Origin: Methanomicrobia archaeon JdFR-19
GTDB taxonomy: Archaea > Halobacteriota > Methanosarcinia > DSM-18856 > Methermicoccaceae
Direction of reading: 5' to 3'
Assembly: GCA_002010075.1 (NCBI GenBank)
Contig: MTMG01000013.1
Span: 72,796 to 136,795 of the forward strand
Length of the DNA stretch: 64,000 nucleotides
Shown: piece after piece, positions 17,378 to 63,892 of the stretch
Numbering within the stretch: position 1 is the first letter of the stretch
Layout: each line of letters starts with the position of its first letter
Notes under the pieces: generated by a model
Database searches by the model: none
Told to the model about the DNA's origin: nothing
The model's input: the letters and a program-made list of their open reading frames with translations, nothing else
Program-made: the position numbers and the translations under genes

Positions 17378-17452
17378 TGGGGCTGCGGAGATTCGAACTC
17401 CGGTCTCAGGACCCCCAGTCCTGAAGGATAGTCCAGGCTACCCTACAGCCCC
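17378..17452 (-). tRNA. tRNA-Pro (anticodon GGG)
   Basis: Hand-folded cloverleaf: acceptor GGGGCUG/CAGCCCC, anticodon loop CUGGGGG, T-loop GUUCGAAUC. CCA is not encoded. Confidence 0.75.
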
Positions 17453-18688: not shown

Positions 18689-18696
18689 ATCACAAG

Positions 18697-18769
18697 TGGG
18701 CTCGCCCGGATTCGAACCGGGGATCTCCTCCGTGTGAGGGAGGCGTCATAACCCCTAGACCACGAGCCC
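18697..18769 (-). tRNA. tRNA-Val (anticodon CAC)
   Basis: Cloverleaf with acceptor GGGCUCG/CGAGCCC, anticodon loop CUCACAC and T-arm CCCGGUUCGAAUCCGGG. Confidence 0.85.
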
Positions 18770-26407: not shown

Positions 26408-26481
26408 ATGCCCAGACCCGGATTTGAACCGGGGACAACCGCGTCTTCAGCGCGGCGCTCTCCCAGACTGAGCTACCTGGG
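26408..26481 (-). tRNA. tRNA-Phe (anticodon GAA)
   Basis: Cloverleaf with acceptor GCCCAGG/UCUGGGC, anticodon loop CUGAAGA and T-arm CCCGGUUCAAAUCCGGG. Confidence 0.85.
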
Positions 26482-26523
26482 CTAACATTATATTAACTAT
26501 AACAATTTAAAACATTTACTCTG

Positions 26524-30584: not shown

Positions 30585-31094
30585 ATGATTGTTGAGGGAG
30601 TCGTACTCAGAATAGGCGAGCCAAACTCGAACGGATGGCTGATACCAGAGGAGGAAGCTGATGGGGTGATTGAGTCCCTCCCCTCAACTCCCCTCACCCT
30701 CTCATCAAAAGACCACATGAACGAAAGGGTGGTTGGAACGGTCGTGGATGCATGGAGGGAAGGGGATAGGGTAGTCGTGAGAGCAGAAGTGAGCGACACC
30801 GAGGTGAGGGACATGATGCTCAGGGGGGAACTTCCAAGGGGATGGTCGATCAATGCAAAGGGAGATGTCTCAAACGGTGTTGCCCGCGACATAGAAATCG
30901 ACACCCTCACAATCGTTAAAAATCCAGCATACAAGGAGGCTGAGTTCAGAATGGTGGAAAACAAGGAAGAAATTAGAGACAAAAGTGAAAATAAAACTGA
31001 AAATGAGAAGAAAAAGGATTTCGATATAGAAATCGAATCCTATGGGCTAACGGTTGGATACTACGACAGAGAAAGTGGAAAATGGATTGCGTGA
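30585..31094 (+). CDS. HK97-family prohead protease-like protein (Peptidase S78/U35-like)
   Basis: Pattern PLTLSSKDHMNERVVGTVVDAW..GDRVVVRAEVSD...GELPRGWSI resembles the U35 consensus (PLL.nHd...iG.v....edgL.v...). Charged KE-rich tail. Confidence 0.5.
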   Translation: MIVEGVVLRIGEPNSNGWLIPEEEADGVIESLPSTPLTLSSKDHMNERVVGTVVDAWREGDRVVVRAEVSDTEVRDMMLRGELPRGWSINAKGDVSNGVARDIEIDTLTIVKNPAYKEAEFRMVENKEEIRDKSENKTENEKKKDFDIEIESYGLTVGYYDRESGKWIA

Positions 31095-31104
31095 GGTGGT
31101 TTGA

Positions 31105-31572
31105 ATGTGGAACAAAGGAAACAAGGTTGTGCTTGCCGGCTCCCCAATCGTCGAGGAGATGAAGATGGGCTCGAACGCAACCCAGTCAGATATGGTACCT
31201 GGGCGCCTTGTGGTGAGAGACACGTCTGATGAGAGTGTGAAGGAAGCACCTGCCAACACAACCCAGCCAGCTGGCTGGATCGGATACGAGCAATCACACC
31301 CAGCACATCGCCCCTCAGACAGAACCACCGCATACTCCTCAGGTGCCTACATTCCAGTTCTGAGGGGACCGGGAGTTGTCCTCATATCAGAGATTACATC
31401 CTCTTCGATAACAAAAGGGGACCTCCTCGTGAGTGCGGGTAATGGAAAACTAACAAAGGCAACGTTTGACGCAACCACCAATTCGCTTCAGTACGTGGCA
31501 GTCGCGATAGCACTTGAAACAGTCGACGCATCCACTGTCGATAAGGAATGTGTTGTGATGAGTTTGATTTGA
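31105..31572 (+). CDS. Hypothetical protein between protease and capsid genes (decoration, scaffold or cargo candidate)
   Basis: 155 aa, Thr/Ser-rich. The only evidence is its position in a head-module-like array. Confidence 0.4.
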   Translation: MWNKGNKVVLAGSPIVEEMKMGSNATQSDMVPGRLVVRDTSDESVKEAPANTTQPAGWIGYEQSHPAHRPSDRTTAYSSGAYIPVLRGPGVVLISEITSSSITKGDLLVSAGNGKLTKATFDATTNSLQYVAVAIALETVDASTVDKECVVMSLI

Positions 31573-31585
31573 TGGGGTGATGTGA

Positions 31586-32416
31586 ATGATACTTTCGCCC
31601 GAACATTATCGAAAATTGAGAGAAGATGTTGTGATAGCAGCAAGAAGAGCAAACGTTGCTAGAAAACTCATGGCAATCAGGGGACCACTTGGTCTTGGGG
31701 TACAACAGTACAGCTATGATGTGCTGGGGGAGGTTGCAAATGCCATACTTTCCCATGTGTTCGAGGCAAGAGACATGGATGTTGTCAATCTCACTCGCAC
31801 AGATGTGAATGTTCCAGTACTTCAGAAGATGTTCGAGATTTCGAGGAGGGATGTTGAATCCTCGCGGAGATATGGAATACCACTCAATACCGCACTGGCA
31901 TCATCGTGTGCATACAAGATATCCTGTCTCGAGAATGAACTCTCTCTGGTCGGATGGGAGAAGGACAGCTCATACGACATCAAGGGACTTTACAGCTCTG
32001 CTGGGAACTCAATCACCGGCTCGGATTTCGGAACCGCAGGAAATGCCATAACGAGTGTGGCTGATGCGATGGGTACCCTGATGGAGGACGAAGTCTTCCC
32101 ACCATACAATTTGGTGCTACACCCAACCCAGTACGCAGAGCTTGTTGGAAACGTTCTCACCTCTGGGGACAGAGAGATATCTCACGTAAAGGAGATGATT
32201 GGTGGTGAGGTGGTGGTGACACCCTTCATCTCAGATGGCACTGGGATGTTGCTGGCAACTCCTGAAGCAAGGTTCTTCGAACTCGTCGTCGCCCAAGACC
32301 TCACGGTTGAGACATGGGAGGACCCAGATACCAAAAACCTGAGAGGCAGAGTGTTCGAGTGTGTTGTGCCTGTGGTGTATGATGCGAATGCGATATGCAA
32401 GCTGACAAGCATTTGA
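31586..32416 (+). CDS. Encapsulin / HK97-fold major capsid protein (Linocin_M18-like)
   Basis: 276 aa. Its C-terminal half (PYNLVLHPTQYAELVG...TPFISDGTGMLLATPEARFFELVVAQDLTVE...PVVYDANAICKL) follows the encapsulin family pattern. Confidence 0.7.
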   Translation: MILSPEHYRKLREDVVIAARRANVARKLMAIRGPLGLGVQQYSYDVLGEVANAILSHVFEARDMDVVNLTRTDVNVPVLQKMFEISRRDVESSRRYGIPLNTALASSCAYKISCLENELSLVGWEKDSSYDIKGLYSSAGNSITGSDFGTAGNAITSVADAMGTLMEDEVFPPYNLVLHPTQYAELVGNVLTSGDREISHVKEMIGGEVVVTPFISDGTGMLLATPEARFFELVVAQDLTVETWEDPDTKNLRGRVFECVVPVVYDANAICKLTSI

Positions 32417-32429
32417 TTGAGGTGTCTGG

Positions 32430-32780
32430 ATGGCTACATACGATGACGTGGTTGCACTCACAGGCACACCTCTTTCACAGAGCGAGGTCGAGGACCTGAT
32501 AGCAATCGCAGAGGAAGAGATAGACTCGGTGCTTTCGAGGGAGGGGATTTCCTTGTCTTCACAAGAATCCCCACCCCACATATACCTTGCCACGCTCTAT
32601 CTCTCCTCTGCCCTCGTCCTCGAAAGAGAGATGCCAGACTCGATACGGCTCGGAGACCTCTCAGTTTCAAACAGCAGAGCAGAATCATACCGTAATTTGG
32701 CGTATAAACTCCTCAGGGAATACGTTTCGATGGTCTCTGAAAGGTGTGTTCTAACACTCGTGTCTTCGGATGAAGAGTAA
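32430..32780 (+). CDS. Putative head-tail connector (gp6-like) protein
   Basis: 116 aa. Its N-terminal region (TPLSQSEVEDLIAIAEEEIDSVL) resembles the gp6-like head-tail connector family. It sits immediately downstream of the capsid gene. Confidence 0.4.
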   Translation: MATYDDVVALTGTPLSQSEVEDLIAIAEEEIDSVLSREGISLSSQESPPHIYLATLYLSSALVLEREMPDSIRLGDLSVSNSRAESYRNLAYKLLREYVSMVSERCVLTLVSSDEE

Positions 32781-32794
32781 GGGGATGGGATGAT

Positions 32795-32968
32795 GGATGG
32801 AGTGAAAGGTCCTCTGTGGATGCCAGAGGGAAGTGTGAGGGCAATACTTGCCATAGTGGTTGTGGTCTTTTCGTTGATTACGGTGATTAGGGAAGGTGAA
32901 ATTCCCCAGTCGCTGTTGGGGATACTGGGCATGGTGATGGGATTCTACTTTGGAGTGAGGAAGTGATA
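32795..32968 (+). CDS. Small membrane protein, 57 aa (holin-like candidate), not in the ORF track
   Basis: ATG-initiated frame MDGVKGPLWMPEGSVRAILAIVVVVFSLITVIREGEIPQSLLGILGMVMGFYFGVRK with two hydrophobic helices. It is below the 60-aa track cutoff. Confidence 0.3.
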
Positions 32969-33277
32969 GTATGGAGAGCACATGCGAAACACTCAGTCTG
33001 GTCGAATTACGGGCAGATGTAAAGGAACTGAGAAATCTGGTTGATATGCTGTATGAGAGGAGGAATGGAAGTGGAAGACCATGACCTCCTCATCGAGCTG
33101 AAAAAGGACATAGAGTACATAAAGGCAAAACTGAGGATGTTGTGTGAGTGTGATTCACATCTGGAGGAGAGGATGAGGACAATCGAGCAGAGATATGCAT
33201 ACATCATGGGTGTGGCTTGTGCAATCGCTTTTGTTGTCTCTCTTCTCGTCAATTGGATGGGCAATTGAGGGATAATC

Positions 33278-33601
33278 ATGATGGAAAGACTGGAGAGCTG
33301 GGCAAAAACACTCATAAACAGATTCGGCACCCAGATGACTCTCCGAAGGGTGTCATCAATCTCCTACAACGAATATGACGAGGCTGAGTATACGTATGAT
33401 GAAACAGATGTGAGAGTGCTGGTGGGGGCAAAGAAGCGAACGTTTGTTCGGAAGGAGGATGGCCTTCATGAGGCTGTGTATGTGAAAGCGGTCTTGGAGA
33501 AAGATGTCGATGTGGGAAAGGGTGATAGATTGGGAGAATGGGTAGTTGAAAGTGTAGAGGAGCATTCCTGCTTCAAGACTCTGATTCTGGTGGCTGAATG
33601 A
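33278..33601 (+). CDS. Hypothetical protein (virus-like region)
   Basis: 107 aa ORF with no family recognised. Confidence 0.4.
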   Translation: MMERLESWAKTLINRFGTQMTLRRVSSISYNEYDEAEYTYDETDVRVLVGAKKRTFVRKEDGLHEAVYVKAVLEKDVDVGKGDRLGEWVVESVEEHSCFKTLILVAE

Positions 33602-33696
33602 GAAACTTTTATCGCAAAATATATTAAGAAATTTCTTGTTTTCAGTTAAAATTACACCGGATTGAAATTACAACCGGATTATGGAAAAGAAATAAA
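33602..33696. repeat. Intergenic region with the direct repeat ACCGGATT twice, 7 nt apart, flanked by AT-rich sequence
   Basis: ...acACCGGATTgaaattacaACCGGATTatgg..., upstream of the 33697 gene. It could be an operator-like repeat or an att remnant. Confidence 0.3.
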
Positions 33697-34506
33697 TTGA
33701 ATGAAATCGGAGAATGTGGGATGGGAGTCAGACTCGGCATATACTACAACGGCTCTTTTGGTGAACGGTTTGTGGCAAATCTCGTGAATTATCCGTACTC
33801 ATGTGCTTCCTTTGGGGCGTGCGGTGTGGAATACTGCACACATTGTAAGCACTATTCGTATTCACGAGATATAGTGGGTGTGGTTGAGATGGAGGATCCA
33901 GAAGGGATGCCTGAATTTCTGGATGATTTGGACTATCCAGTTCAGAAGATGGAAGCCGATGTTATCGTTGCGATACATATGCATCCTGACATACTTCTGA
34001 CTCTTCCAGAAAATGTGTCTGCAGACGCCCTCATCGTTCCAATAGAAGGGAAATGGTACCCGAGGGGTGTGATAACCGAGCTCGAAAGAAAGTGTGAGAA
34101 AATGGGTATGGAGTTTTCAGCACCCAAGCCATTCTGCATACTCAGGGAGAGAGAAGACACCCCAGTGATAAACGAGTTCATAAAACATTTCAGAATAGGA
34201 TATCCGAAGTTCAGAATACACAATAGCATAGAGGTACTGAGAAGTGAGCCGTGTGGTGCTGCATGGTTTGTTGCAACCCGACTGAGACTGTCTGGACTGG
34301 ACTCAGATATCAGAGAACTGTGGAACAGGGTGTCTGAGGCACATCACAGTTTTCCCTGCACCGCAACCATGGAAAAGGATGAGGAGTACGGAGACAGTCT
34401 GTTGCACGTTGCAGGGTACGTTCTCAGACACGCAATCGATGAGGCAATCGGGTATGAGGGGGATGAGGAGATACCAGATAAACTGAAGGAGATAGTACTC
34501 TGGTAA
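33697..34506 (+). CDS. Cys-rich hypothetical protein (possibly DUF166/COG1810-like)
   Basis: 269 aa with CASFGACGVEYCTHCKHY and additional Cys/His clusters. TTG start in the track. Confidence 0.5.
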   Translation: MNEIGECGMGVRLGIYYNGSFGERFVANLVNYPYSCASFGACGVEYCTHCKHYSYSRDIVGVVEMEDPEGMPEFLDDLDYPVQKMEADVIVAIHMHPDILLTLPENVSADALIVPIEGKWYPRGVITELERKCEKMGMEFSAPKPFCILREREDTPVINEFIKHFRIGYPKFRIHNSIEVLRSEPCGAAWFVATRLRLSGLDSDIRELWNRVSEAHHSFPCTATMEKDEEYGDSLLHVAGYVLRHAIDEAIGYEGDEEIPDKLKEIVLW

Positions 34507-34510
34507 ATAA

Positions 34511-35077
34511 TCACACAATCGGCATTCTCACCATTACATCCTTCGAATTCCTTCTCATTACCACATACAAATCGAAGGCGTTATGGGTTGCATATCCCTC
34601 GGCTGTTATTCGGAGGGCAATTCTCTCGCCCTGCTCAACTCTCATGGCGGATATGTTTATCCAGTACGGAAATGCAACCGTGATGGAGCCACTTCCCCCA
34701 AAATCGAAGATGTGCTGATGGCATATGAATCCTCCCTCCACCTCCTCTGAACCATCATCCATGATCTTCACAATATCCACACTGGGTGTTATATAGGCAG
34801 TCCCATCACTTCCTGTGTTCTGACACATGAGAGTTATCCATCCACACACAACACCATCCACCACATAAACATCTGCAGGTGTGAAGGGATATAGTACATC
34901 CGCTGTTCCAACATCCCCCCAACTAGTCGGGATATGCCCCAATTCATCGTATTCCTCTATGTCAGCATATTCGTGTGTTGAGAGGGAAGTGAGAATGTGG
35001 TAATACAGAGAGCCACCCCACTCAAATGCGTCTTTGAACTTCACTCCTCTTAACTCGATAACGTTCCTGCTTATCAT
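34511..35077 (-). CDS. Hypothetical protein (virus-like region, minus-strand module)
   Basis: 188 aa with no family recognised. Confidence 0.45.
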   Translation of the reverse strand: MISRNVIELRGVKFKDAFEWGGSLYYHILTSLSTHEYADIEEYDELGHIPTSWGDVGTADVLYPFTPADVYVVDGVVCGWITLMCQNTGSDGTAYITPSVDIVKIMDDGSEEVEGGFICHQHIFDFGGSGSITVAFPYWINISAMRVEQGERIALRITAEGYATHNAFDLYVVMRRNSKDVMVRMPIV

Positions 35078-35081
35078 TAGC

Positions 35082-35435
35082 TCACCCCGTATTCACCGTA
35101 TACTCTCCCCACTTCTCCCGGCTCTGGTATTCAGCGACAGCTCTTGCGAGTGTCTCACCATCAAGGTTGATTGTGATGGGCTGCGGCTCGATTTTTATTG
35201 TTATGTTGTTGGACTCACCGTTTACGTTGGTTGGTTTTACCGAGGATTTTACTGGGAGGAATGTGATGGCAGGATAATCAGAAGTATCTGTGATTTTTAA
35301 GCCCGATAAAATCGGTTTTATTCTGTCCACTGTTTTCAGGATTTCCACGCTCTGATTTATACTGTGGTTTGTTGTGTGTTCTATGTTGTGTGCCATGATG
35401 TACCACACCTTCCTGATTTTATCTATGTTGATCAC
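35082..35435 (-). CDS. Hypothetical protein (virus-like region)
   Basis: 117 aa. GTG start that overlaps the upstream stop. Confidence 0.4.
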   Translation of the reverse strand: MINIDKIRKVWYIMAHNIEHTTNHSINQSVEILKTVDRIKPILSGLKITDTSDYPAITFLPVKSSVKPTNVNGESNNITIKIEPQPITINLDGETLARAVAEYQSREKWGEYTVNTG

Positions 35436-37024
35436 CTCTCCTCAACCCCCCTTCGGATACGTGGGTCCACATGAGCCTGGTTGACGATGTCTTCGAAGCC
35501 GTCTCCTCCTACGAGAAGGGGAACCATCACGAAATAATCGATGTTCACGTCGTAGTCGGTTGTGGATGTTGTTCTTATCACAATGGTGTCGTTCACATCA
35601 CCGTCATCAAATTGAACATCGAGATAATGATATCCCAAATCAGTGGATGGATTCACGGTCGAGGATGAGACTGTGGTGGCATCAGTGGTATTCTCCACAG
35701 ATATCACACACTCCGAACCCGTCTCACCGCTCAATCTGAATATGGCTTTCCATGTCCCTTTCTTCAAACTCGATAAGGTTCCCCAGTTCCACTGCCAGTA
35801 CTCCCCGTTATTGCGCAGAGAAATTCCCTGGGAATTCGAGTATGAGGGGTTGTCTGATATGAAACCGGTTGCTGTCCCACTACAACTCGTAGACTCTGCT
35901 TCGGTGAATAGGTCAGATGTGTTATAGGATTCTGGAACGAAGGCACCGAAGTAGCATGGAGAGTTCCACTGCCACACTGCTCGCCACTTTCCCTCAGTAG
36001 AGTTAGCCCACTGCAAAGAAGCCTCGCCCCCCCTCACAAATATCTGGATTTCGGAGGATGAGGGGTCAAAGAACGCAGCCCAGCTGGTGGTCTTGAAAGC
36101 CTCTGGCATGAGTTCAGCATCTTCCAAATACCCCTGTCCTCTGTACCCGAATCTGTGGTACGGATAAACGTGTTTTGCATAAGAGATGTAGGCGAGAGGC
36201 TTACCCCTCCACATCTTGATGGTTCTTACATTTCCAGATACCGTGATGTTGAGTTCTGCGTAATCTGGCGAAAATGATATGATTTCAGGCGAGGAGTACG
36301 CCCCCTCCAGATGGATGTCATGACTGAGTGATGTCCATGCACCATCATACACATATCCTGCAATGGTGTCTGAGGAAAGTGAACCAACCCCCAGTTTGTA
36401 TATCCCGTTCTCGATGGCTGGATTCCCTGAGAAGTTGTGGGAGGTTGAATAGACTCGGTCGGAACCGTCGAAGATTTTCACCTCCCCAACGTTCACCTCC
36501 TCTCCATCGAGTTCGTATCTGGCTGTCTGGGATTTCACCAGTGTGATTGTTCCGTCTGATGTGGTTCTTGTGATGGTTGGCTCGGTTCCGATGTATTTCG
36601 CACCCACGGGCAGTGGAATGTAACAGTAGTCGGTCGAATATCCCTCATCCGCAACCGGATAGGCTTTTAGAATCGTTCTGTACAGATGGGAGGGAAGGAA
36701 CATTCCCTTTATTCTCGATACGATGATATTTCCAGTCTCACGAAACTCGATATCTGAGACCGCCAGATACCCATCCCGGTTAGCATAACTAATTTTATTA
36801 TAGGAAGCGTCTCTCAAAACCGTCAGCAGGTCTTCCTTGTAATCCCGGGCAGTCTTCCCGCTGGTTGGATACAATATGGCTTCAAGCTCCACTTCCCTCA
36901 CATTGGAGGGAAACGATACCACCACTGGCTGGTTGAGACCCAGAGCTCTGAACTGAATGAGTTTCTGGGACTGGACTTCGTCGAACCGGGTGATTGCAGG
37001 TACGTATATCTCACCTATGTGCAT
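35432..37024 (-). CDS. Large structural protein, tail or tail-fibre-like candidate
   Basis: 530 aa, Ser/Thr/Gly/Tyr/Trp-rich and beta-rich in composition. It is the largest gene in the structural-looking array. Confidence 0.4.
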   Translation of the reverse strand: MHIGEIYVPAITRFDEVQSQKLIQFRALGLNQPVVVSFPSNVREVELEAILYPTSGKTARDYKEDLLTVLRDASYNKISYANRDGYLAVSDIEFRETGNIIVSRIKGMFLPSHLYRTILKAYPVADEGYSTDYCYIPLPVGAKYIGTEPTITRTTSDGTITLVKSQTARYELDGEEVNVGEVKIFDGSDRVYSTSHNFSGNPAIENGIYKLGVGSLSSDTIAGYVYDGAWTSLSHDIHLEGAYSSPEIISFSPDYAELNITVSGNVRTIKMWRGKPLAYISYAKHVYPYHRFGYRGQGYLEDAELMPEAFKTTSWAAFFDPSSSEIQIFVRGGEASLQWANSTEGKWRAVWQWNSPCYFGAFVPESYNTSDLFTEAESTSCSGTATGFISDNPSYSNSQGISLRNNGEYWQWNWGTLSSLKKGTWKAIFRLSGETGSECVISVENTTDATTVSSSTVNPSTDLGYHYLDVQFDDGDVNDTIVIRTTSTTDYDVNIDYFVMVPLLVGGDGFEDIVNQAHVDPRIRRGVEER

Positions 37025-37135
37025 TTCTCATCCTCTCCCTATTCATGATTTCGAGTATTCGTGTGATTCTCACGAAGTCCTCCTCAGCCATCTCGTCTAT
37101 TTCAGAAGGAGTCCATCCGAACTCACGCATGAGCA

Positions 37136-37576
37136 TCACTTCCGTGATTTCTTCTGATGGTTCTTTTCCTCGCAGAGCCCGTTTGATGTGCCTGACCCAT
37201 TCCTTTTCGTGGTATCGATATAACGAGACAAAAAATCCTCACAAGTCCCTCCAAGTGCACGCCTGCTGTTGTTGTAGTGGTACCAGAACTCTTCTTCATT
37301 CAGATTCTCGATTTCCTCTGGACTCATCCCGGTAGAGAGCATGATCGTGCCAGCATACATGAGTTCCTCCACCTCATCAGAAAAGTCGGCAAGTGCATCC
37401 CTGTCCTCTTCTACCTTCTCCTTTATTTTTTCTGGAAGTTCATCTGGGTTGATATTTCCGAAGTACTTCAGAATAATTCTTTTGTATAGTTTCCTGAGAA
37501 CTTTTACATCCTTATGAATGGGATTTCTTCTGTAATCCATACTCATACACCTCATGAGATATTTATCGATTTGCAA
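37136..37576 (-). CDS. Hypothetical protein (virus-like region)
   Basis: 146 aa, acidic helical N-terminal part and basic C-terminal tail. Confidence 0.35.
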   Translation of the reverse strand: MQIDKYLMRCMSMDYRRNPIHKDVKVLRKLYKRIILKYFGNINPDELPEKIKEKVEEDRDALADFSDEVEELMYAGTIMLSTGMSPEEIENLNEEEFWYHYNNSRRALGGTCEDFLSRYIDTTKRNGSGTSNGLCEEKNHQKKSRK

Positions 37577-38436
37577 GGCAGACTTTCCAATGTGGTCTCC
37601 ACCAAGTCATCTGGTGTGAAGTCCCCATCGAAATACGGGAAGGCAACTTCTTCCACACCTATCGTTTTATCACCAACGCTGGCAACCAGATCCCTCTTTG
37701 TGAGGCTCGTTATATCACTCAACATGTCCAGACTTGCGAAGTCCATTGTCAACCCCACCACTATATCCCGCTTGGTGGGAACGAGTCCGACTATTTTGGT
37801 GGATGTTGTTGCATCCACATCCTTCACGATTTTGAGTTCGTAGTCCACCCTGATGGAGAATTCTCTGACGTAGTCGCTGATTGCCTCACCCCCCAGCGTC
37901 AGAGACGTCAGGTCATCCCACTTCAGCACCGAGGTGTATGGGGAAGCGTGGCTTCCAGCCCCTATGTAATCCGTGTCCGAATATCCAGAGAAGTCTGCCC
38001 CCACCAGTGTGAAATCAAGGGATGCGACATCGTCTTCTCTGAATGTCAGAGTTGCACTCTTCACCACACAGCCTGCATACTTGCCGAAGTGTTTTGTGCC
38101 CCCGACATCCACGATATGTCCTATCGAGATCGATGGGAGGGAGTCGTCCGTACCAGATGCACTGCCCAGCACATGAGAAGCCCACCATGTCAGGTCGTTG
38201 GGCTTTATGCTCATCGCCAGCTCTATCTCCTGCCCTGTTTTCTCGACTGTCAGACTTTCGAGTGCCTCCTCACCATTCGCCCTCAGATATCTTACGTCCT
38301 GTGAAAGCGTTCGAATCGTGGGAGTAAACCGTTCGACAAGACCGAACCACTGCATCGTTGGGTCAGTTGGGAAGACGCCAAACGATGTCTCATCCACGTA
38401 TTCAACAGGCTGGTTTCCGATTATCATCTCATGCAC
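37552..38436 (-). CDS. Structural protein, major capsid or major tail candidate
   Basis: 294 aa. It sits directly after a coiled-coil scaffold-like gene, following the portal-scaffold-capsid order. Confidence 0.4.
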   Translation of the reverse strand: MHEMIIGNQPVEYVDETSFGVFPTDPTMQWFGLVERFTPTIRTLSQDVRYLRANGEEALESLTVEKTGQEIELAMSIKPNDLTWWASHVLGSASGTDDSLPSISIGHIVDVGGTKHFGKYAGCVVKSATLTFREDDVASLDFTLVGADFSGYSDTDYIGAGSHASPYTSVLKWDDLTSLTLGGEAISDYVREFSIRVDYELKIVKDVDATTSTKIVGLVPTKRDIVVGLTMDFASLDMLSDITSLTKRDLVASVGDKTIGVEEVAFPYFDGDFTPDDLVETTLESLPCKSINIS

Positions 38437-38731
38437 CTCCGTACTGGGTTATGAGTTCGTCAATTCTTTCGAGTTCTGACTGGATATTCTCGATTCTCTG
38501 CTGGATTACTGATGTTAGTTGAGACTTCGTCTCGTCCGATAACCTTGAATTGAGAATAAGGCTCTTTTCAGATTTCAGGTCGTCCAGATGATTCTGGAGA
38601 GTTTCCTTCTTCGTGTTCAGATACTCCAAAACATCCTTGGTACTCATCACCGTTTTGAGAAGGGACTCGAGCGATTGGGCATAATTTTTGAGATAATCTA
38701 ACTCAATTTTTATCATGTCAAGCTCCTCCAC
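38429..38731 (-). CDS. Coiled-coil protein (scaffold-like)
   Basis: 100 aa with heptad-rich sequence (LESLLKTV...LQNHLDDLKSEK...IENIQSELERIDELI). Confidence 0.4.
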   Translation of the reverse strand: MEELDMIKIELDYLKNYAQSLESLLKTVMSTKDVLEYLNTKKETLQNHLDDLKSEKSLILNSRLSDETKSQLTSVIQQRIENIQSELERIDELITQYGGA

Positions 38732-39127
38732 TCAAACACCTCCTTCAATAAAATGAACTTTGAATTCCACAATCCTGCAATTCGGACTTTTCTCCCTGTT
38801 TGATGTGTTGGCTATGGTGTAGCCAAGTTCTGCACTCAGAAGAAGTTGCACAACAGAATCCGCCAGTTCATCCCTCTGTTTCACAGTGTTTGACCAGACC
38901 TTCACCTTTACATGGGCAACGAACTCACTGAGAACAAGTCCATCCTCGAGGTCTCTGTAGTGTTTGGTGTTCACAATTTCCCCTTCAACCGTTATCATGG
39001 GATACATCGGTTCATGGGAATGGTATGCTGTGAAGATCCACGAGTCTCCAGCCACATTCGGGTCATTGGGATTCGTAAGATTCTCTCTCAGGTAATCCCT
39101 TACCGTGAGTACAACATCCTCCAACAT
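38732..39127 (-). CDS. Hypothetical protein (virus-like region)
   Basis: 131 aa. Its TGA stop abuts the GTG start of the scaffold-like gene. Confidence 0.4.
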   Translation of the reverse strand: MLEDVVLTVRDYLRENLTNPNDPNVAGDSWIFTAYHSHEPMYPMITVEGEIVNTKHYRDLEDGLVLSEFVAHVKVKVWSNTVKQRDELADSVVQLLLSAELGYTIANTSNREKSPNCRIVEFKVHFIEGGV

Positions 39128-39214
39128 CCTGAATGAGGTTGGAGGAGGGATAGAAAATGCTAAATCAGAAAAGTTGAGGGGAATAAAAAGAGAGGATATT
39201 GTGTTAGACTCGCA

Positions 39215-39493
39215 TCATCTTATCTCAAACCTTTTCCTATCAAGCAGTTCCTGTTTCTTTGCCTCGTTCCAGCCACTCACATCTTGGAGATATCCCGTTA
39301 TCCGAGAAATGGGCAGGACGTTGTGCGAACCACATTCCGGACAGTAGAACTCACCACATACCGGACAGACATGTATCCCAGAAATGGGTTTCATGCACGA
39401 ACCATGCTCGCGGGCATACTCCCTGACGGGGCAGTTGTCAGGCGTGTATTTAAACTCACTCTTGATAGCCTTCTCAATGACTTCTTGAAGCAT
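39215..39493 (-). CDS. Stand-alone NrdD-like C-terminal domain: zinc ribbon plus glycyl-radical motif
   Basis: CPVCGEFYCPECGSH ... SRITGYLQDVSGWNEAKKQELLDRKRF parallels the class III RNR C-terminus (CxxC...CxxC, RV(C/T)GY(L/S), WN.GK..E..DR) in only 92 aa. Confidence 0.6.
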   Translation of the reverse strand: MLQEVIEKAIKSEFKYTPDNCPVREYAREHGSCMKPISGIHVCPVCGEFYCPECGSHNVLPISRITGYLQDVSGWNEAKKQELLDRKRFEIR

Positions 39494-39534
39494 GAAAGTG
39501 AATTGACTCCAATTCTACTTAAATGTTAGGATGT

Positions 39535-40614
39535 TTAAATATTAAGAGGGTCGAATCTCATTTCCACCCCCTCATCGTATCCCCATGCTCTCATCTGTGG
39601 GATGAGGACATCTCTCTCGAACACTCTTTTGATTTGGCGTTGCATCGACATCAGAACGTTCAGTCTGTCTTTCTCTGAAACGTAGGAAGATGCGTAGGTT
39701 GAGCCTCTTGCCTTTCCGGTTGTAATCTCTGACTGGAGGAGAGCTATTGCGATGTCTCTTTCCAAGCTCTCCTTGAGTCCGAGAATGTCGGTTGCTCCTG
39801 TGGTTGGAGTCAAAGGCTTCACCTCGAATCCCACCCCCACAATGTCCTCGTTCTGTTCAAGCTTCTGCATCTCCTCTTTCACATCGTCCAGCACTTTCTT
39901 TATCTCCTCGAATCTTCCTTCGTGCAGAAGTGGTTCAAGAGCCTTCATATCGATGTGAAGCCTTCCCATTCCGTATCTTCTGACAGCTTTTGTGAATCCT
40001 TCGAGCAAATCGAGTTTGTACTTCACGATTCTGTCTATGGGGTCGAGGAGTGAGATACCATACAGACCAAGGGTAGTTCTTCCCATGATATCTGTGCATA
40101 CATTCCCCTCTGGAAAGAGGCGAAATAGTGCGAACTCGTCTCTGTTGAATACTGTGGGGACAGACTCCTCCTGAACAACCACTCTGTCCACCTTACCCTT
40201 CAGAACGTGTGTGGGAATCTCTTTCGGTCTCACTCCTTTGGGGAGGAGAGTGATGTACCTCATGGGGAGTGGAGTGAGTGAGGAAATAGTATCACCATCC
40301 CATTCGAGGTGGAGAACAACGGTTCCATCACGGGCAAGCAGTCTGGCAACTGTTGCAATCACGTGGTCGAGATTCACTCCCACAGCCCACTTTTCAAGCT
40401 CCTTCACACCACCACAGAACTCGAAGCCACTTGAGATTGTGAGACCCAGTTTCAGAAGTGAGGTTGCAACATAGGGGTCGATCTGGGAGAGCTGTTCGTA
40501 TCTGATGAAGCGGTTGGATGTGTCAAGGTAGAAGTTCCCCACTTTGTAGTCGTCCGGTGTGATTCTGGGTATTGCCGACAAAGAAGCCTGAATTCTTTTC
40601 TTTCTGAAGAACAT
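39535..40614 (-). CDS. Portal-like protein candidate (virus-like region)
   Basis: 359 aa. The evidence is weak: its size and its position at the head of a scaffold/capsid-like array. Confidence 0.35.
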   Translation of the reverse strand: MFFRKKRIQASLSAIPRITPDDYKVGNFYLDTSNRFIRYEQLSQIDPYVATSLLKLGLTISSGFEFCGGVKELEKWAVGVNLDHVIATVARLLARDGTVVLHLEWDGDTISSLTPLPMRYITLLPKGVRPKEIPTHVLKGKVDRVVVQEESVPTVFNRDEFALFRLFPEGNVCTDIMGRTTLGLYGISLLDPIDRIVKYKLDLLEGFTKAVRRYGMGRLHIDMKALEPLLHEGRFEEIKKVLDDVKEEMQKLEQNEDIVGVGFEVKPLTPTTGATDILGLKESLERDIAIALLQSEITTGKARGSTYASSYVSEKDRLNVLMSMQRQIKRVFERDVLIPQMRAWGYDEGVEMRFDPLNI

Positions 40615-40652: not shown

Positions 40653-41816
40653 TTATTTATATTTTCTCAGAACATCCTTCAACTCCCTCAGAAACTCTTC
40701 CACCGTTCTTTCAGAAACGTGGGGCATCATGACCATTCTTATTGCCTCACCCACAGTCGAGACATACCAGTTCCTTCTCATCAGCTCATTCTTCACATCC
40801 TCCGCCCTATCACATCTCACACACAGCACATTGCACACCGGCTCTATGACCGGCTCGAGTCCGAGCTCCTCACATCCCTCTTTCATGAGATGGGTTATAC
40901 GCATGCACTCCTTCACGATTTTCGTGTAACCATCCCATCCGAGATGTCTCATCACCGCATACGCACCCACAACAGAACCACCAGTTCTCGTTCCGGTGAG
41001 TGTGTATTGAGAGCGGTGGGTGAGGTAGGGGGTATCGACCGCCAGCCTATCCATCACGTTCTCTCTGAAAACAAGCACACCGCACGGAATGGTTGAGAAT
41101 CCCATCTTGTGTGGGTCTATCGAAACTGAACTGACACCCTTCACAAAACCCCAGTCTCTCCTTCCAAGAAATGGAAGGACAAATCCACCAAACGCAGCAT
41201 CCACATGCAGAAATATTCCTCTCTCCTCTGCAATCTTCCCCAACTCCTCGATTGGGTCAACCTGTCCGTACTCTGTTGTACATGCGATGCCAACTATTGC
41301 AAACGTGTTATCATCCACCAGACCCTCCACCTCTCCAACATCCACCTTCAAATCCTCATTGAGCGGAGCCTTCCTGACCTCAACACCCAAAAGGTCTGAA
41401 ATTTTATCAAAAGAGAAATGGGCACTCTCAGGAACCACAATATTTCCTTTTTCACCTTCGCTTCCTTTTTTATTTTCTTTCTTTGCAACCCTCATCGCCT
41501 GTATGTTGGATTCTGTTCCTCCAGTGGTTGCAAATCCCCATGTCTTCGAGTTGCCAGCAAGCTCCCCAACCCTCTTCACAACACACCCTTCTATCTATGA
41601 GGAAGCGGGAAACAGCCCCGGGTCTCCAAGGTTCGATTCCATGTAGAGGATGTGGGCTCTCACAGCAACCGGATGGGGTAAGGTGCACATCGAAGAAAGA
41701 ATTCTGGTGTAGGAGATGTCCCTCTCCTTCATCAGCGAAAGCACATACAACACGCTCTCATCTTTTTCGCCCTCTATGTTCCACACCTTCACACCTCCAA
41801 AAGCTCTGCTTCGCAC
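40653..41816 (-). CDS. mfnA: PLP-dependent L-tyrosine/L-aspartate decarboxylase (MfnA family), with an in-frame TAG at 41595..41597
   Basis: Track ORFs 41595..41816 (N-terminus ...SSMCTLPHP...NLGDPGLFPASS) and 40653..41579 (...TTGGTESNIQAM...SIDPHKMG with the PLP lysine) share a frame and are joined through TAG ATA GAA GGG TGT GTT GTG. Both halves align to MfnA. The N-terminal start is uncertain and overlaps the upstream gene. Confidence 0.8.
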
Positions 41817-42424
41817 CTCTCAAAATCAACAACAGCACCCATCCCCATGTAAAGGGGACCCGGATTGACAATCAGAGTTCCCGTGCGATGTTCCACTCCT
41901 CTTGCCTCGTGTATGTGTCCGCACAGAATCACATCCACCTTCCCCACCGCCCCCTATATCGCCTTCGAGCCAACGTGCTCTCCCCTCGCCACATCACACA
42001 CTCCATAGGGTGGTGCATGACTCACGAGACACGTTGTACGGCTCTCATCCCGAATCTTAGAGAGCAGTTCTTCCAGCATGTATCTGATTGAGTCCTCACT
42101 CATCTCGAACGGAGTCGAAAATGGAGTGGGATTCGAGCCACCGATTCCCATGAACAGCACGTCCCCCATCTCGACCACCCTCCTGTGCAGGGGGATTGCT
42201 CCCTCCTCCTCAAGTGCTTGGTGAATTTCTGGCGGGTCACAGTTCCCACCAACTCCAATCACTTTCCTGCCCTTCAGAATCTCCATCATGTGCTTCACAT
42301 GTGTGAGGGGACCGAAGTTCGTGATGTCTCCGCACATCACAACCACATCCACCCCCACCCTTTCAACCACTTCTCTCATTTTCTCGTATCTTCCATGTGC
42401 ATCAGACAAGACGAGTGCTCTCAT
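41789..42424 (-). CDS. Metallophosphoesterase (MJ0936/YfcE-like), with an in-frame TAG at 41954..41956
   Basis: Track ORF 41954..42424 (MRALVLSDAHGRYEKM...VVMCGDITNFG...GGNCD) stops at TAG. The same frame continues GAVGKVDVILCGHIHEARGVEHRTGTLIVNPGPLY... (the GHxH and NPGS motifs) to a TGA at about 41789. Confidence 0.75.
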
Positions 42425-63725: not shown

Positions 63726-63741
63726 AAAAGCACCTCCTTAA

Positions 63742-63816
63742 CGGACCCGGCGCGATTCGAACGCGCGACCCCCGGGTTAGAAGCCCGGTGCTATATCCTG
63801 GCTAAGCCACGGGCCC
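63742..63816 (-). tRNA. tRNA-Arg (anticodon UCU)
   Basis: Cloverleaf with acceptor GGGCCCG/CGGGUCC, anticodon loop CUUCUAA and T-arm GCGCGUUCGAAUCGCGC. Confidence 0.85.
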
Positions 63817-63819
63817 ACA

Positions 63820-63892
63820 GGCCGGGACCGAGATTCGAACTCGGCTCTTGGCCTCCACAGGGCCAAAGGATAACCACTACCCTATCCCGGCC
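63820..63892 (-). tRNA. tRNA-His (anticodon GUG) with genomically encoded G-1
   Basis: Acceptor GCCGGGA/UCCCGGC plus an extra 5' G opposite discriminator C73. Anticodon loop CUGUGGA. It lies 3 nt from tRNA-Arg. Confidence 0.85.

What the first reader, a model, noticed from the sequence alone, without database searches (positions are those of the whole stretch)
39215..39493. Free-standing 92-aa NrdD C-terminal module (Zn ribbon plus glycyl-radical loop) inside the virus-like island
The ORF contains only the CxxC...CxxC zinc ribbon and the RxTGY glycyl-radical loop with its trailing WN.AKK.E..DR helix. In class III ribonucleotide reductase this is the last about 80 residues of a 600-700 aa enzyme. 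A separate glycyl-radical 'spare part' is known for pyruvate formate-lyase (GrcA/YfiD), which rescues oxygen-cleaved enzyme. An NrdD equivalent, here apparently virus-borne, would be an analogous repair module for anaerobic RNR. Alternatively it is the tail of a split or degraded nrdD.
Basis: partly seen in the sequence, partly recalled or inferred. Interest (0 to 1): 0.65.

Follow-up and report, generated by a model that had tools for sequence, protein, structure and literature searches.

The report
Stand-alone glycyl-radical subunit of anaerobic RNR
This 92-residue gene in a virus-like island encodes only the radical-carrying tail of the anaerobic ribonucleotide reductase, and it belongs to a large, apparently undescribed family of such free-standing tails that in a whole order of methanogens (and some of their viruses) partner a reductase body that has lost its own tail.

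Summary
Window 39215-39493 (-) is an intact 92-aa ORF that passes Pfam's curated NRDD threshold and covers only the last ~50 positions of NrdD models: the Cys cluster, the RITGY radical loop and the trailing helix.

It is not a decayed fragment. It belongs to a family of about 100 clusters (50% identity) of 39-208-aa proteins with an invariant radical Gly.

- **Methanomicrobiales:** the ~120-aa member is a housekeeping gene. The NrdD enzymes there (120/120 examined, including M. boonei 6A8) stop exactly where the Zn ribbon/Gly loop of fused Methanosarcina NrdD begins.
- **Viral contigs:** three carry mini gene, glutaredoxin-like gene and tail-less NrdD core side by side. Core and mini tile the TIGR02487 model (2-531 and 525-581).
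- **Other virus-like contigs:** many, like this window, carry the mini alone.

Best reading: a trans-acting glycyl-radical subunit of a two-piece class III RNR, here carried by an old, fixed virus-derived island as an auxiliary gene.

I found no description of this split in the searchable literature.

The parts
39215..39493 (-). mini-NrdD: 92-aa stand-alone glycyl-radical-domain protein
   Evidence: ORF confirmed. PF13597 52.2 bits, above the 26.2 gathering cut-off. TIGR02487 positions 532-580 of 581. Aligns over residues 3-91 to other mini proteins but only over 51-91 to fused NrdDs. Lowest non-synonymous divergence in the island (pN 0.18) with synonymous sites saturated (pS 0.91) against the L001 ortholog.
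39290..39307 (-). codons for S63-R64-I65-T66-G67-Y68, the glycyl-radical loop; the predicted radical Gly67 is at 39293-39295
   Evidence: Read directly from the sequence. S63, R64, T66, G67 and Y68 are invariant in the 28-sequence family alignment. Aligned to the RITGY loop of NrdD structures.
39332..39367 (-). codons for C43-P-V-C46-G-E-F-Y-C51-P-E-C54, the compact four-Cys (presumed Zn) cluster
   Evidence: C43, C46, C51 and C54 are invariant in the family. The spacing is CxxC-x4-CxxC, against CxxC-x10-15-CxxC in fused NrdDs. Metal binding is inferred, not tested.
39218..39271 (-). codons for W75-N-E-A-K-K-Q-E-L-L-D-R-K-R..., the trailing helix of the radical domain
   Evidence: W75, N76, K79, E82 and R86 are invariant. 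The AlphaFold model has a helix at residues 77-85. 67% identical over 42 aa to M. barkeri NrdD residues 726-767.
39515..39523 (-). TTTAAGTAG, a TATA-like box 22-30 nt upstream of the ATG (tentative own promoter)
   Evidence: Read from the sequence. The L001 ortholog also has A/T-rich boxes about 25 and 43 nt upstream. Not tested; suggestive only.
39535..40614 (-). 359-aa portal-like protein; right-hand end of the virus-like island
   Evidence: PF06074 Portal_Mu, E=5.4e-06, 26.4 bits, partial match. Ortholog in L001. No PHROG hit.
37552..38436 (-). tail tube protein of the island
   Evidence: PF18906 Phage_tube_2, 1.5e-13. phrog_290, 1.6e-11.
31105..32416 (+). cement/minor-capsid protein (31105-31572) and HK97/encapsulin-fold major capsid protein (31586-32416) of the island
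   Evidence: PF23982/PF22758 and PF04454/PF25209. The same two protein clusters occur in viral contig L106, which also carries a large terminase, a Mu-F-like protein, a scaffold protein and a mini-NrdD.
30585..40614 (.). about 10-kb virus-derived island lying between an MMPL transporter gene and an MfnA-like decarboxylase gene
   Evidence: The same layout appears in three independent metagenome assemblies and, partly, in Methermicoccaceae MAG L001. No terminase or integrase was detected and there are no flanking direct repeats.

Best explanation
The gene encodes a self-standing glycyl-radical domain, the small 'radical cartridge' of a two-piece class III (anaerobic) ribonucleotide reductase.

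**Proposed mechanism**
1. The compact Cys cluster binds a metal and presents the RITGY loop to an NrdG-type radical-SAM activase, which abstracts a hydrogen from Gly67.
2. The small protein docks onto an NrdD catalytic barrel that lacks, or has lost, its own C-terminal domain.
3. The docked loop places the Gly radical next to the finger-loop cysteine (QCCA motif, NrdD3 type), so a thiyl radical can start NTP reduction.
4. Electrons come from a small glutaredoxin/NrdH-like protein.

**What is shown**
- Homology and intactness of the domain.
- Strong purifying selection.
- A large family of such proteins.
- Tail-less NrdD cores throughout Methanomicrobiales.
- Mini, redoxin and tail-less core as neighbours in three viral contigs.
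- Exact tiling of the NrdD profile by core plus mini.

**What is inferred**
- Radical formation on the mini.
- Docking of the mini to the core.
- The partner in this particular organism.

In this window the gene sits in an old, fixed, virus-derived island in a relative of Methermicoccaceae. Many virus-like contigs carry only this roughly 300-bp gene. I read it as a virus-origin auxiliary gene that supplies the labile, oxygen-sensitive, radical-bearing piece of the host's dNTP-making enzyme.
For: **Domain identity**
-.

**Family**
- All 89 word-index hits are 56-160-aa proteins carrying PF13597.
- The exhaustive profile search ranks about 100 clusters of 39-208-aa proteins above any full-length NrdD. 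Full-length enzymes match only profile positions ~43-68 onward to 109.
- The radical Gly, the four Cys and the helix residues are invariant.
- The window protein aligns to other minis over residues 3-91 but to fused NrdDs only over 51-91.

**Tail-less partners**
- L091, L092 and L098 have the order mini, CPxC redoxin, NrdD ORF. That NrdD ORF ends '...GYFAFT(K/R)D(F/I)T(I/V)...' with no RxxGY motif and no terminal CxxC.
- The 120 closest relatives are Methanomicrobiales NrdDs (M. boonei 6A8, Methanolacinia petrolearia, Methanoculleus, Methanocalculus, Methanogenium). 0 of 120 have a Gly loop or a C-terminal CxxC.
- The M. boonei core is 68% identical to fused M. barkeri NrdD over 693 aa, with an identical GISCYQCCAYQFS finger loop. 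The alignment stops at the point where the fused enzyme continues into its 59-aa ribbon/Gly tail.
- 119 of 120 Methanosarcina/Methanoperedens/Methanotrichaceae-type relatives are fused.
- TIGR02487 tiling: core covers 2-529 or 2-531; mini covers 525-581, 527-580 or 532-580.
- The mini is a housekeeping gene in more than 588 genome loci. It is present in cultured M. hungatei JF-1 and in Methanofollis species.

**Virus carriage**
- L106 (terminase, Mu-F-like, scaffold, and the same capsid and cement clusters as the window) carries a mini.
- 22 viral-contig loci have a small (<200-aa) ORF with the SR[VI]TGY loop; one of them, L121, is a fused NrdD cut by the contig end.
- P0138 and P0009 lie in virus-like contigs.

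**Selection in this lineage**
- pN 0.18 against pS 0.91 between the window and L001, the lowest pN of the island's genes.
Against: - The partner in this organism was not found. There is no NrdD core and no NrdG in the 64-kb window. No Methermicoccaceae NrdD surfaced in the two large searches.
- The relatives of this host that could be named (Methanosarcina, Methanotrichaceae, Methanoperedens) have fused NrdDs. A tail-less host core is therefore not the default expectation.
- The window protein lacks the N-terminal extra CxxC...CPxCG extension present in most cellular minis and in the three minis that sit next to tail-less cores.
- No NrdG-type activase lies within 10 kb of any mini locus examined. 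It was seen only beside fused viral NrdDs.
- Co-occurrence of mini and tail-less core in one and the same cellular genome was shown at order/genus level only. It was not demonstrated on a single assembly.
- Fold searches with the isolated AlphaFold model gave no significant match.
- There are no biochemical data.
Confidence: 0.6

Rival explanations
1. GrcA/YfiD-like spare part. The host has a normal full-length NrdD. After oxygen cleaves that enzyme at its glycyl radical, or when its tail is otherwise inactivated, the 92-aa protein is activated by NrdG and replaces the lost domain, restoring activity.
For: - The host's named relatives (Methanosarcina, Methanotrichaceae, Methanoperedens) have fused NrdDs, and their tails are 65-76% identical to the window protein over 41 aa.
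- The window protein lacks the N-terminal extension typical of minis that pair with tail-less cores.
- It has been kept under strong purifying selection in a defective island, which implies benefit to the host.
- The precedent of GrcA for pyruvate formate-lyase.
Against: - There is no evidence that this host has a full-length NrdD.
- Wherever a partner could be identified for this family, it is a core that never had a tail.
- The window protein shares the family-specific CxxC-x4-CxxC cluster and upstream homology with those minis. It does not look like a recent copy of a fused tail.
- No homology to GrcA or the PFL Gly_radical domain.
Confidence: 0.25
2. Decoy or regulator. The virus-derived mini domain competes with the host NrdD tail (or with the host's own mini) for the activase NrdG or for the docking site on the core. 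It thereby throttles or redirects host dNTP synthesis instead of supporting it.
For: - The gene is virus-associated and is often carried without a core or an activase.
- Viral minis vary in their N-terminal parts.
Against: - The radical Gly and every loop and helix residue needed for function are invariant in viral and cellular copies alike. A decoy would not need the Gly.
- Viruses that carry a tail-less core place a mini in the same operon. Neighbouring viral genes are dNTP-supplying (ThyA-like).
- Long-term retention in a fixed host island argues for a benefit.
Confidence: 0.08
3. Non-functional relic: the leftover 3' end of an nrdD gene that was destroyed by the insertion or decay of the virus-like element.
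For: Only the last ~50 residues match NrdD. Two neighbouring host genes are split in this organism.
Against: - No other NrdD-like sequence anywhere in the window, even at E<=10.
- The ORF has its own ATG and about 40 N-terminal residues homologous to other minis.
- An intact ortholog sits at the same position in L001, with synonymous sites saturated but 75% amino-acid identity.
- A third lineage (P0001) is 87% identical.
- Identical protein in three metagenomes.
Confidence: 0.03
4. A zinc-ribbon protein that has been recruited to a function unrelated to ribonucleotide reduction. In Methanomicrobiales, for example, that could be a function linked to the CbiZ/zf-like gene it overlaps.
For: - In 60 of 76 Methanomicrobiales loci the mini's stop overlaps or abuts a CbiZ+zf-like gene.
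- Sources annotate it variously as RNA polymerase subunit, CHY zinc finger or oxidoreductase.
Against: - The most conserved part is the radical loop and helix, not the Cys cluster.
- The same organisms' NrdDs lack exactly this part.
- Operon linkage to the NrdD core in three viral loci.
Confidence: 0.04

Closest known systems
Methanosarcina barkeri class III RNR (NrdD3 subtype; NrdD with NrdG, NrdH-like redoxin and ferredoxin:disulfide reductase; Wei et al. 2015, cited from my own knowledge and listed in reference lists found)
   Same: The window protein is 67% identical over 42 aa to the C-terminal residues 726-767 of M. barkeri NrdD. The tail-less Methanomicrobiales cores are 68% identical to it over 693 aa, with the same QCCA finger loop (NrdD3 motif per PMC9669993). 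A small glutaredoxin/NrdH-like gene precedes the core, as in the NrdD3 operon.
   Different: In M. barkeri the barrel and the glycyl-radical domain are one polypeptide (770 aa). Here the radical domain is a separate 92-aa protein with a shortened Cys cluster and its own N-terminal region, encoded away from any core.
GrcA / YfiD (and phage T4 Y06I), the autonomous glycyl-radical cofactor of pyruvate formate-lyase
   Same: A small free-standing protein that carries only a glycyl-radical domain, presumably activated by the parent enzyme's activase, and able in principle to supply the radical in trans. A phage-borne example (T4 Y06I) exists.
   Different: There is no sequence relationship: it has no PF01228/PFL match, and GrcA has no Cys cluster. 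GrcA backs up an enzyme that has its own domain. In this family the identifiable partners have no domain of their own, so the mini would be an obligatory subunit. A 2026 review states that only formate lyases have known spare parts.
Short NrdD C-terminal ORFs of T4-like bacteriophages (phrog_29160, phrog_4218)
   Same: Small phage ORFs that match the end of NrdD. Examples are L155-157, L164, L168 and L170.
   Different: Those have the RRVTGYLT-type loop of bacterial/phage NrdD. They lie next to the rest of nrdD and next to nrdG, so they look like genes cut by introns or homing endonucleases, or by assembly. The window protein scores only 17.9-25.4 bits on those two short families, versus 35.8 on the full-length family phrog_487, and it belongs to the archaeal SR(V/I)TGYLQ.V.GWN family.
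Class I RNR R1/R2 architecture
   Same: The radical is generated and stored on a separate small subunit and delivered to the catalytic barrel.
   Different: Unrelated small subunit (ferritin-like, tyrosyl or metal radical), long-range radical transfer, and oxygen-dependent. This is only an analogy.

Membership tests
Class III RNR catalytic subunit NrdD (PF13597 / TIGR02487) | Significant match to the family profile | tested here: met
   PF13597 at 52.2 bits, above the 26.2 gathering cut-off. For TIGR02487, E=5e-15 but 55 bits, far below the whole-protein cut-off of 326, because only positions 532-580 are present.
Class III RNR catalytic subunit NrdD (PF13597 / TIGR02487) | Ten-stranded alpha/beta barrel with finger-loop cysteine (the catalytic body) | tested here: not met
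   The protein is 92 aa and matches only the last ~50 profile positions. No barrel-encoding sequence anywhere in the window. It is therefore not an NrdD enzyme, only its radical domain.
Class III RNR catalytic subunit NrdD (PF13597 / TIGR02487) | C-terminal radical glycine in an RxxGY loop preceded by a four-Cys metal site | tested here: met
   R64-I-T-G67-Y68, and C43/C46/C51/C54. The Cys spacing is atypical (x4 instead of x10-15).
Class III RNR catalytic subunit NrdD (PF13597 / TIGR02487) | Glycyl radical installed by NrdG; NTP reduction | not testable with these tools
   Needs EPR and an activity assay. No NrdG in the window.
Stand-alone mini-NrdD (glycyl-radical-domain-only) family defined here | Small protein (<~210 aa) whose homology to other members extends upstream of the part shared with fused NrdD | tested here: met
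   Aligns over residues 3-91 to minis (P0001, P0002, L011, P0138, and others) but only over 51-91 to fused NrdDs. It ranks within the small-protein block.
Stand-alone mini-NrdD (glycyl-radical-domain-only) family defined here | Family-specific CxxC-x4-CxxC cluster plus conserved upstream Cys pair | tested here: met
   C21 is nearly invariant. C33, C43, C46, C51 and C54 are invariant in alignment A1.
Stand-alone mini-NrdD (glycyl-radical-domain-only) family defined here | An NrdD core lacking its own radical domain in the same genome or operon | not testable with these tools
   Shown for three viral operons and, at order/genus level, for Methanomicrobiales. For the window organism the rest of the genome is not available, and the capped searches did not retrieve its NrdD.
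GrcA/YfiD spare-part proteins | Homology to the PFL-type glycyl-radical domain (PF01228) | tested here: not met
   No PF01228 hit at E<=0.1. The domain is NrdD-type.
GrcA/YfiD spare-part proteins | Coexists with a full-length parent enzyme and rescues it after oxygen cleavage | not testable with these tools
   The host NrdD state is unknown, and a rescue assay is required.
Integrated tailed-virus genome (provirus) | Structural module (capsid, portal, tail tube) | tested here: met
   The capsid and cement clusters are shared with viral contig L106.
Integrated tailed-virus genome (provirus) | Terminase, integrase and attachment-site repeats (a complete, mobile provirus) | tested here: not met
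   No terminase or integrase domain among the island ORFs scanned. No flanking direct repeats. The island diverged in step with the flanking host gene. It is a remnant or a domesticated element.

The most novel reading that the evidence does not exclude
Across an entire archaeal order (Methanomicrobiales), in some other archaea and in their tailed viruses, the anaerobic ribonucleotide reductase is a two-subunit enzyme. Its glycyl radical resides on a separately encoded, exchangeable ~100-aa protein. That would be the first glycyl radical enzyme whose radical domain is obligatorily in trans. Viruses, and the domesticated island in this window, carry just this 'radical cartridge' to take over or sustain host dNTP synthesis, much as cyanophages carry the fast-turnover photosystem protein D1.
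Probability: 0.6. Interest if true: 0.85.

Novelty: new variant of a known kind. Interest (0 to 1): 0.75.

Why it matters
- **It breaks a textbook rule.** Glycyl radical enzymes are taught as single polypeptides whose C-terminal domain carries the radical. The only known autonomous radical domain is GrcA for pyruvate formate-lyase. A natural, widespread split of class III RNR would break that rule for the enzyme that makes DNA precursors in strict anaerobes.
- **It offers an experimental system.** A ready-made two-piece enzyme would let researchers study how the radical domain is activated by NrdG, how it docks, and how the radical crosses a subunit interface.
- **It suggests a damage-control strategy.** After oxygen damage, only a ~13-kDa subunit would have to be replaced, not a 730-aa enzyme.
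- **It explains a recurrent small gene in archaeal viruses** as a cheap auxiliary metabolic gene.
- **It corrects annotation.** Thousands of ~120-aa proteins are labelled 'anaerobic ribonucleoside-triphosphate reductase', 'oxidoreductase' or 'RNA polymerase subunit', while the tail-less Methanomicrobiales NrdDs are treated as complete enzymes.

Tried and rejected
1. **Adjacent remainder of nrdD (frameshift or intein).** Rejected. The neighbours are a portal-like protein and a 131-aa protein, and tblastn with fused and tail-less NrdDs finds nothing else in the window at E<=10.
3. **Finding the host's own NrdD.** Two large protein searches, one with a tail-less core and one with the fused NrdD whose tail is closest, returned Methanomicrobiales and Methanosarcina/Methanoperedens/Methanotrichaceae proteins but no Methermicoccaceae NrdD. 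P0191, the fused NrdD with the most similar tail, turned out to sit on another virus-like contig.
4. **Activase.** A probe with E. coli NrdG (recalled from memory) plus a motif filter found NrdG beside bacterial-phage NrdDs. It found NrdG2-type genes beside fused archaeal-virus NrdDs (L110, L115; verified). It found none near any mini and none in the window.
5. **Cluster c2** near viral NrdDs was first suspected to be the activase. It is ThyA-like.
6. **Attachment sites.** No convincing direct repeats flank the island.
7. **Literature.** Five full-text searches and five papers read gave no description of a split NrdD or an NrdD spare part. The library lacks many subscription papers, so absence is not proof.
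Full report
**1. The observation**

Window 39215-39493 (minus strand) is an intact ORF of 92 codons with an ATG start.
- It passes Pfam's curated threshold for NRDD (PF13597, 52.2 bits against 26.2, E=5.6e-14). Only residues 40-89 match, to the last 55 of 562 profile positions.
- NCBIfam TIGR02487 places residues 42-88 on positions 532-580 of 581.
- The best solved relative by sequence is the C-terminus of an NrdD structure, 8p23_A residues 698-735.

- a four-Cys cluster (C43, C46, C51, C54);
- the loop S63-R-I-T-G67-Y68;
- the helix W75-N-E-A-K-K-Q-E-L-L-D-R-K-R.

**2. Surroundings**

The gene lies between a 359-aa protein with a weak Mu-portal match and a set of small ORFs leading to a tail-tube gene (PF18906, 1.5e-13), all on the minus strand. 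Further left are a cement-like protein and an HK97/encapsulin-fold capsid protein on the plus strand. The island (about 30.6-40.6 kb) sits between an MMPL transporter gene and an MfnA-like decarboxylase gene.
- No terminase or integrase was detected, and no flanking repeats were found.
- The identical arrangement recurs in three independent metagenome assemblies.
- A diverged but syntenic copy, next to the same host genes, occurs in a Methermicoccaceae MAG (L001).
- Between the window and L001, synonymous sites are saturated. Amino-acid divergence of island genes (pN 0.27-0.35) is like that of the flanking host gene (0.29).
- The mini-NrdD is the most conserved island gene (pN 0.18, 75% identity).

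The island is therefore old, fixed and still coding, and the 92-aa gene is under strong purifying selection.

Nothing else in the 64-kb window resembles NrdD, even at E<=10. No NrdG-like radical-SAM gene is present either. The 'adjacent frameshifted remainder' scenario is excluded.

**3. It is one of a large family**
- A word-indexed search of 5.8 billion proteins returned 89 hits, all 56-160 aa, all carrying PF13597, and none a full-length enzyme.
- An exhaustive profile search of 1.84 billion representatives put about 100 clusters of 39-208-aa proteins on top. Full-length NrdDs (625-2288 aa) appear only from 73 bits downward, and they match only the final stretch of the profile (starting at positions ~43-68, ending at ~105-109).
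- In a 28-member alignment, the radical Gly, the loop, the helix residues and five Cys are invariant.
- The family has its own signature: a compact CxxC-x4-CxxC cluster instead of the CxxC-x10-15-CxxC ribbon of fused enzymes.
- The window protein aligns to other members over residues 3-91 but to fused NrdDs over 51-91 only. It is a true member, not a recent truncation.

**4. What the family does: the key evidence**

In Methanomicrobiales the ~120-aa member sits in a housekeeping neighbourhood with no viral genes: deoxyhypusine synthase, pyrF, mini, a CbiZ+zf-like gene and an RPA-like gene. It is present in more than 588 genome loci, including complete genomes and cultured species such as Methanospirillum hungatei JF-1.

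In three large viral contigs (L091, L092, L098) the order is mini, then a small CPxC glutaredoxin-like gene, then a large NrdD ORF.
- That NrdD ends at '...GYFAFT(K/R)D(F/I)T(I/V)...' and has no RxxGY loop and no terminal Cys pairs.
- Its 120 closest relatives are the NrdDs of Methanomicrobiales (M. boonei 6A8, Methanolacinia petrolearia DSM 11571, Methanoculleus, Methanocalculus, Methanogenium). 0 of 120 have a Gly loop or a CxxC in the last 80-90 residues.
- The fused relatives are the NrdDs of Methanosarcina (including M. barkeri), Methanoperedens and Methanotrichaceae. 119 of 120 have the loop, and they continue after '...GYFAFTRDMTV' with 'C-x13-CPKCGS...LSRITGYLQSVEGWN.GKRQEL.DRKRY'.
- The M. 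boonei core is 68% identical to M. barkeri NrdD over 693 residues, with an identical GISCYQCCAYQFS finger loop. That is the QCCA motif of the NrdD3 subtype. The alignment stops exactly at the break.
- On the TIGR02487 model the cores cover positions 2-529 or 2-531, and the minis cover 525-581, 527-580 or 532-580. The two pieces tile the enzyme.
- In M. boonei a glutaredoxin/NrdH-like gene overlaps the start of the core. It is homologous to the small redoxin in the viral operons.

The simplest reading is that in these lineages class III RNR is a two-piece enzyme and the mini is its radical-bearing subunit.

**5. Virus carriage**
- Of the viral-collection hits, 22 loci have a small (<200-aa) ORF with the SR[VI]TGY loop. 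One of these (L121) is a fused NrdD cut by the contig end, which leaves about 21 true minis.
- L106 is a genuine head module: large terminase, Mu-F-like, scaffold, and the same capsid and cement clusters as the window island. It carries a mini between these genes.
- L092 has a baseplate protein and a DNA methylase.
- The contigs of P0138 and P0009 are typical runs of small unknown ORFs.
- Most of these carry the mini without a core within reach.

Viruses of this group also encode ThyA-like, MazG-like and, in other cases, complete fused NrdD with NrdG2. The mini therefore fits a nucleotide-supply module.

**6. Mechanism proposed, and what is not shown**

Shown:
- domain identity and family membership;
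- selection;
- complementary truncation of the partner;
- operon linkage in three loci.

Inferred from established knowledge of T4, E. coli and M. barkeri class III RNR:
- NrdG abstracts a hydrogen from the Gly, with the metal site needed for activation.
- The loop inserts next to the finger-loop Cys.
- The redoxin delivers electrons.

Not shown:
- any physical interaction;
- the activase for the mini (none lies within 10 kb of any mini locus);
- above all, the state of NrdD in the window's own organism.

Its named relatives have fused enzymes, and the window protein lacks the N-terminal extension of most minis. Either way the protein would act as a radical domain supplied in trans.

**7. Comparison with what is known**
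- The closest characterised system is the fused M. barkeri NrdD3 enzyme.
- The closest concept is GrcA/YfiD for pyruvate formate-lyase. That protein is unrelated in sequence (no PF01228 hit), and it backs up an enzyme that has its own domain.
- Short NrdD pieces in T4-like phages (phrog_29160, phrog_4218) are a different class. They lie next to the rest of the gene and next to nrdG.

A June 2026 review states that formate lyases are the only glycyl radical enzymes with known spare-part proteins. RNR evolution papers and reviews I could read treat the radical domain as the C-terminus of NrdD and do not mention a split. Databases have carried the M. hungatei protein under the name 'oxygen-sensitive ribonucleoside-triphosphate reductase-like protein'. 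The homology has thus been seen by annotators, but I found no functional interpretation.

**8. Verdict**
- The finding is real, and the gene is functional and virus-associated.
- The most likely function is a trans-acting glycyl-radical subunit of class III RNR (confidence 0.6 for this locus, higher for the family).
- I rate it a new variant of a known kind, with high interest. It exposes an apparently undescribed, order-wide two-piece architecture of an essential enzyme and a recurrent viral auxiliary gene, both directly testable.

Noticed in passing
window 30585-40614: The virus-like island has capsid, cement, tail tube and portal-like genes but no terminase, no integrase and no att repeats. 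It sits at the same chromosomal position in a second Methermicoccaceae lineage (L001), with host-like divergence and all ORFs intact. This suggests a domesticated particle-forming or GTA-like element rather than a decaying provirus.
   Followed up: partly
window 40653-41816 and 41789-42424: The MfnA-like PLP decarboxylase (308 aa plus a 63-73-aa N-terminal piece) and the adjacent metallophosphoesterase (156 plus ~50 aa) are each split into two ORFs. The same splits recur in three independent metagenome assemblies, so they are not sequencing errors. Both genes are intact in L001 (401 and 237 aa).
   Followed up: partly
window 33697-34506 (+): A DUF166 protein (PF02593, 1.4e-55; weak match to the NCBIfam DfsP selenoprotein model) lies in the middle of the island, between the head genes and the tail genes. 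It is unclear whether it is host cargo or part of the element.
   Followed up: no
L002-L010 and 60 of 76 loci among L011-L090 (e.g. L002:8366-9274): In Methanomicrobiales the mini-NrdD stop overlaps or abuts the start of a ~300-aa CbiZ (PF01955) + 'zf-like' (PF04071) gene, with pyrF upstream in 54 of 67 loci. No NCBIfam model matches the CbiZ-like protein. Any functional link to the radical subunit is unexplained.
   Followed up: partly
L011:7812-13996 (Ca. Alkanophaga volatiphilum): A cellular mini-NrdD outside Methanomicrobiales sits next to an HD + HD_assoc_2 (dNTP triphosphohydrolase-like) gene and an MvhD/FdhA/FdhB cluster. The split family is therefore not confined to one order.
   Followed up: no
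L110:10385-10969, L115:5750-6478: NrdG2-type activase genes (TIGR02495; 183.7 bits in L115, above the cut-off) follow fused NrdD plus redoxin in archaeal-virus contigs. No activase was seen within 10 kb of any mini-NrdD locus.
   Followed up: partly
L091:10475-13726, L112, L117, L120, L176 (P0191), P0190: Many archaeal-virus and Methanosarcinales-type NrdDs are inflated by inteins with LAGLIDADG domains (1083-2288 aa), including the tail-less viral core of L091.
   Followed up: no
L155-L157, L164, L168, L170: T4-like bacteriophage contigs contain 50-200-aa ORFs that match only the NrdD C-terminus (RRVTGYLT type), next to nrdG. They are probably genes interrupted by introns or homing endonucleases, a separate phenomenon from the archaeal mini family.
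   Followed up: no
window 17378-17452, 18696-18769, 26409-26482, 63741-63892: Five tRNA genes (Pro-GGG, Val-CAC, Phe-GAA, Arg-TCT, His-GTG). None adjoins the island, so tRNA-targeted integration is not evident.
   Followed up: no
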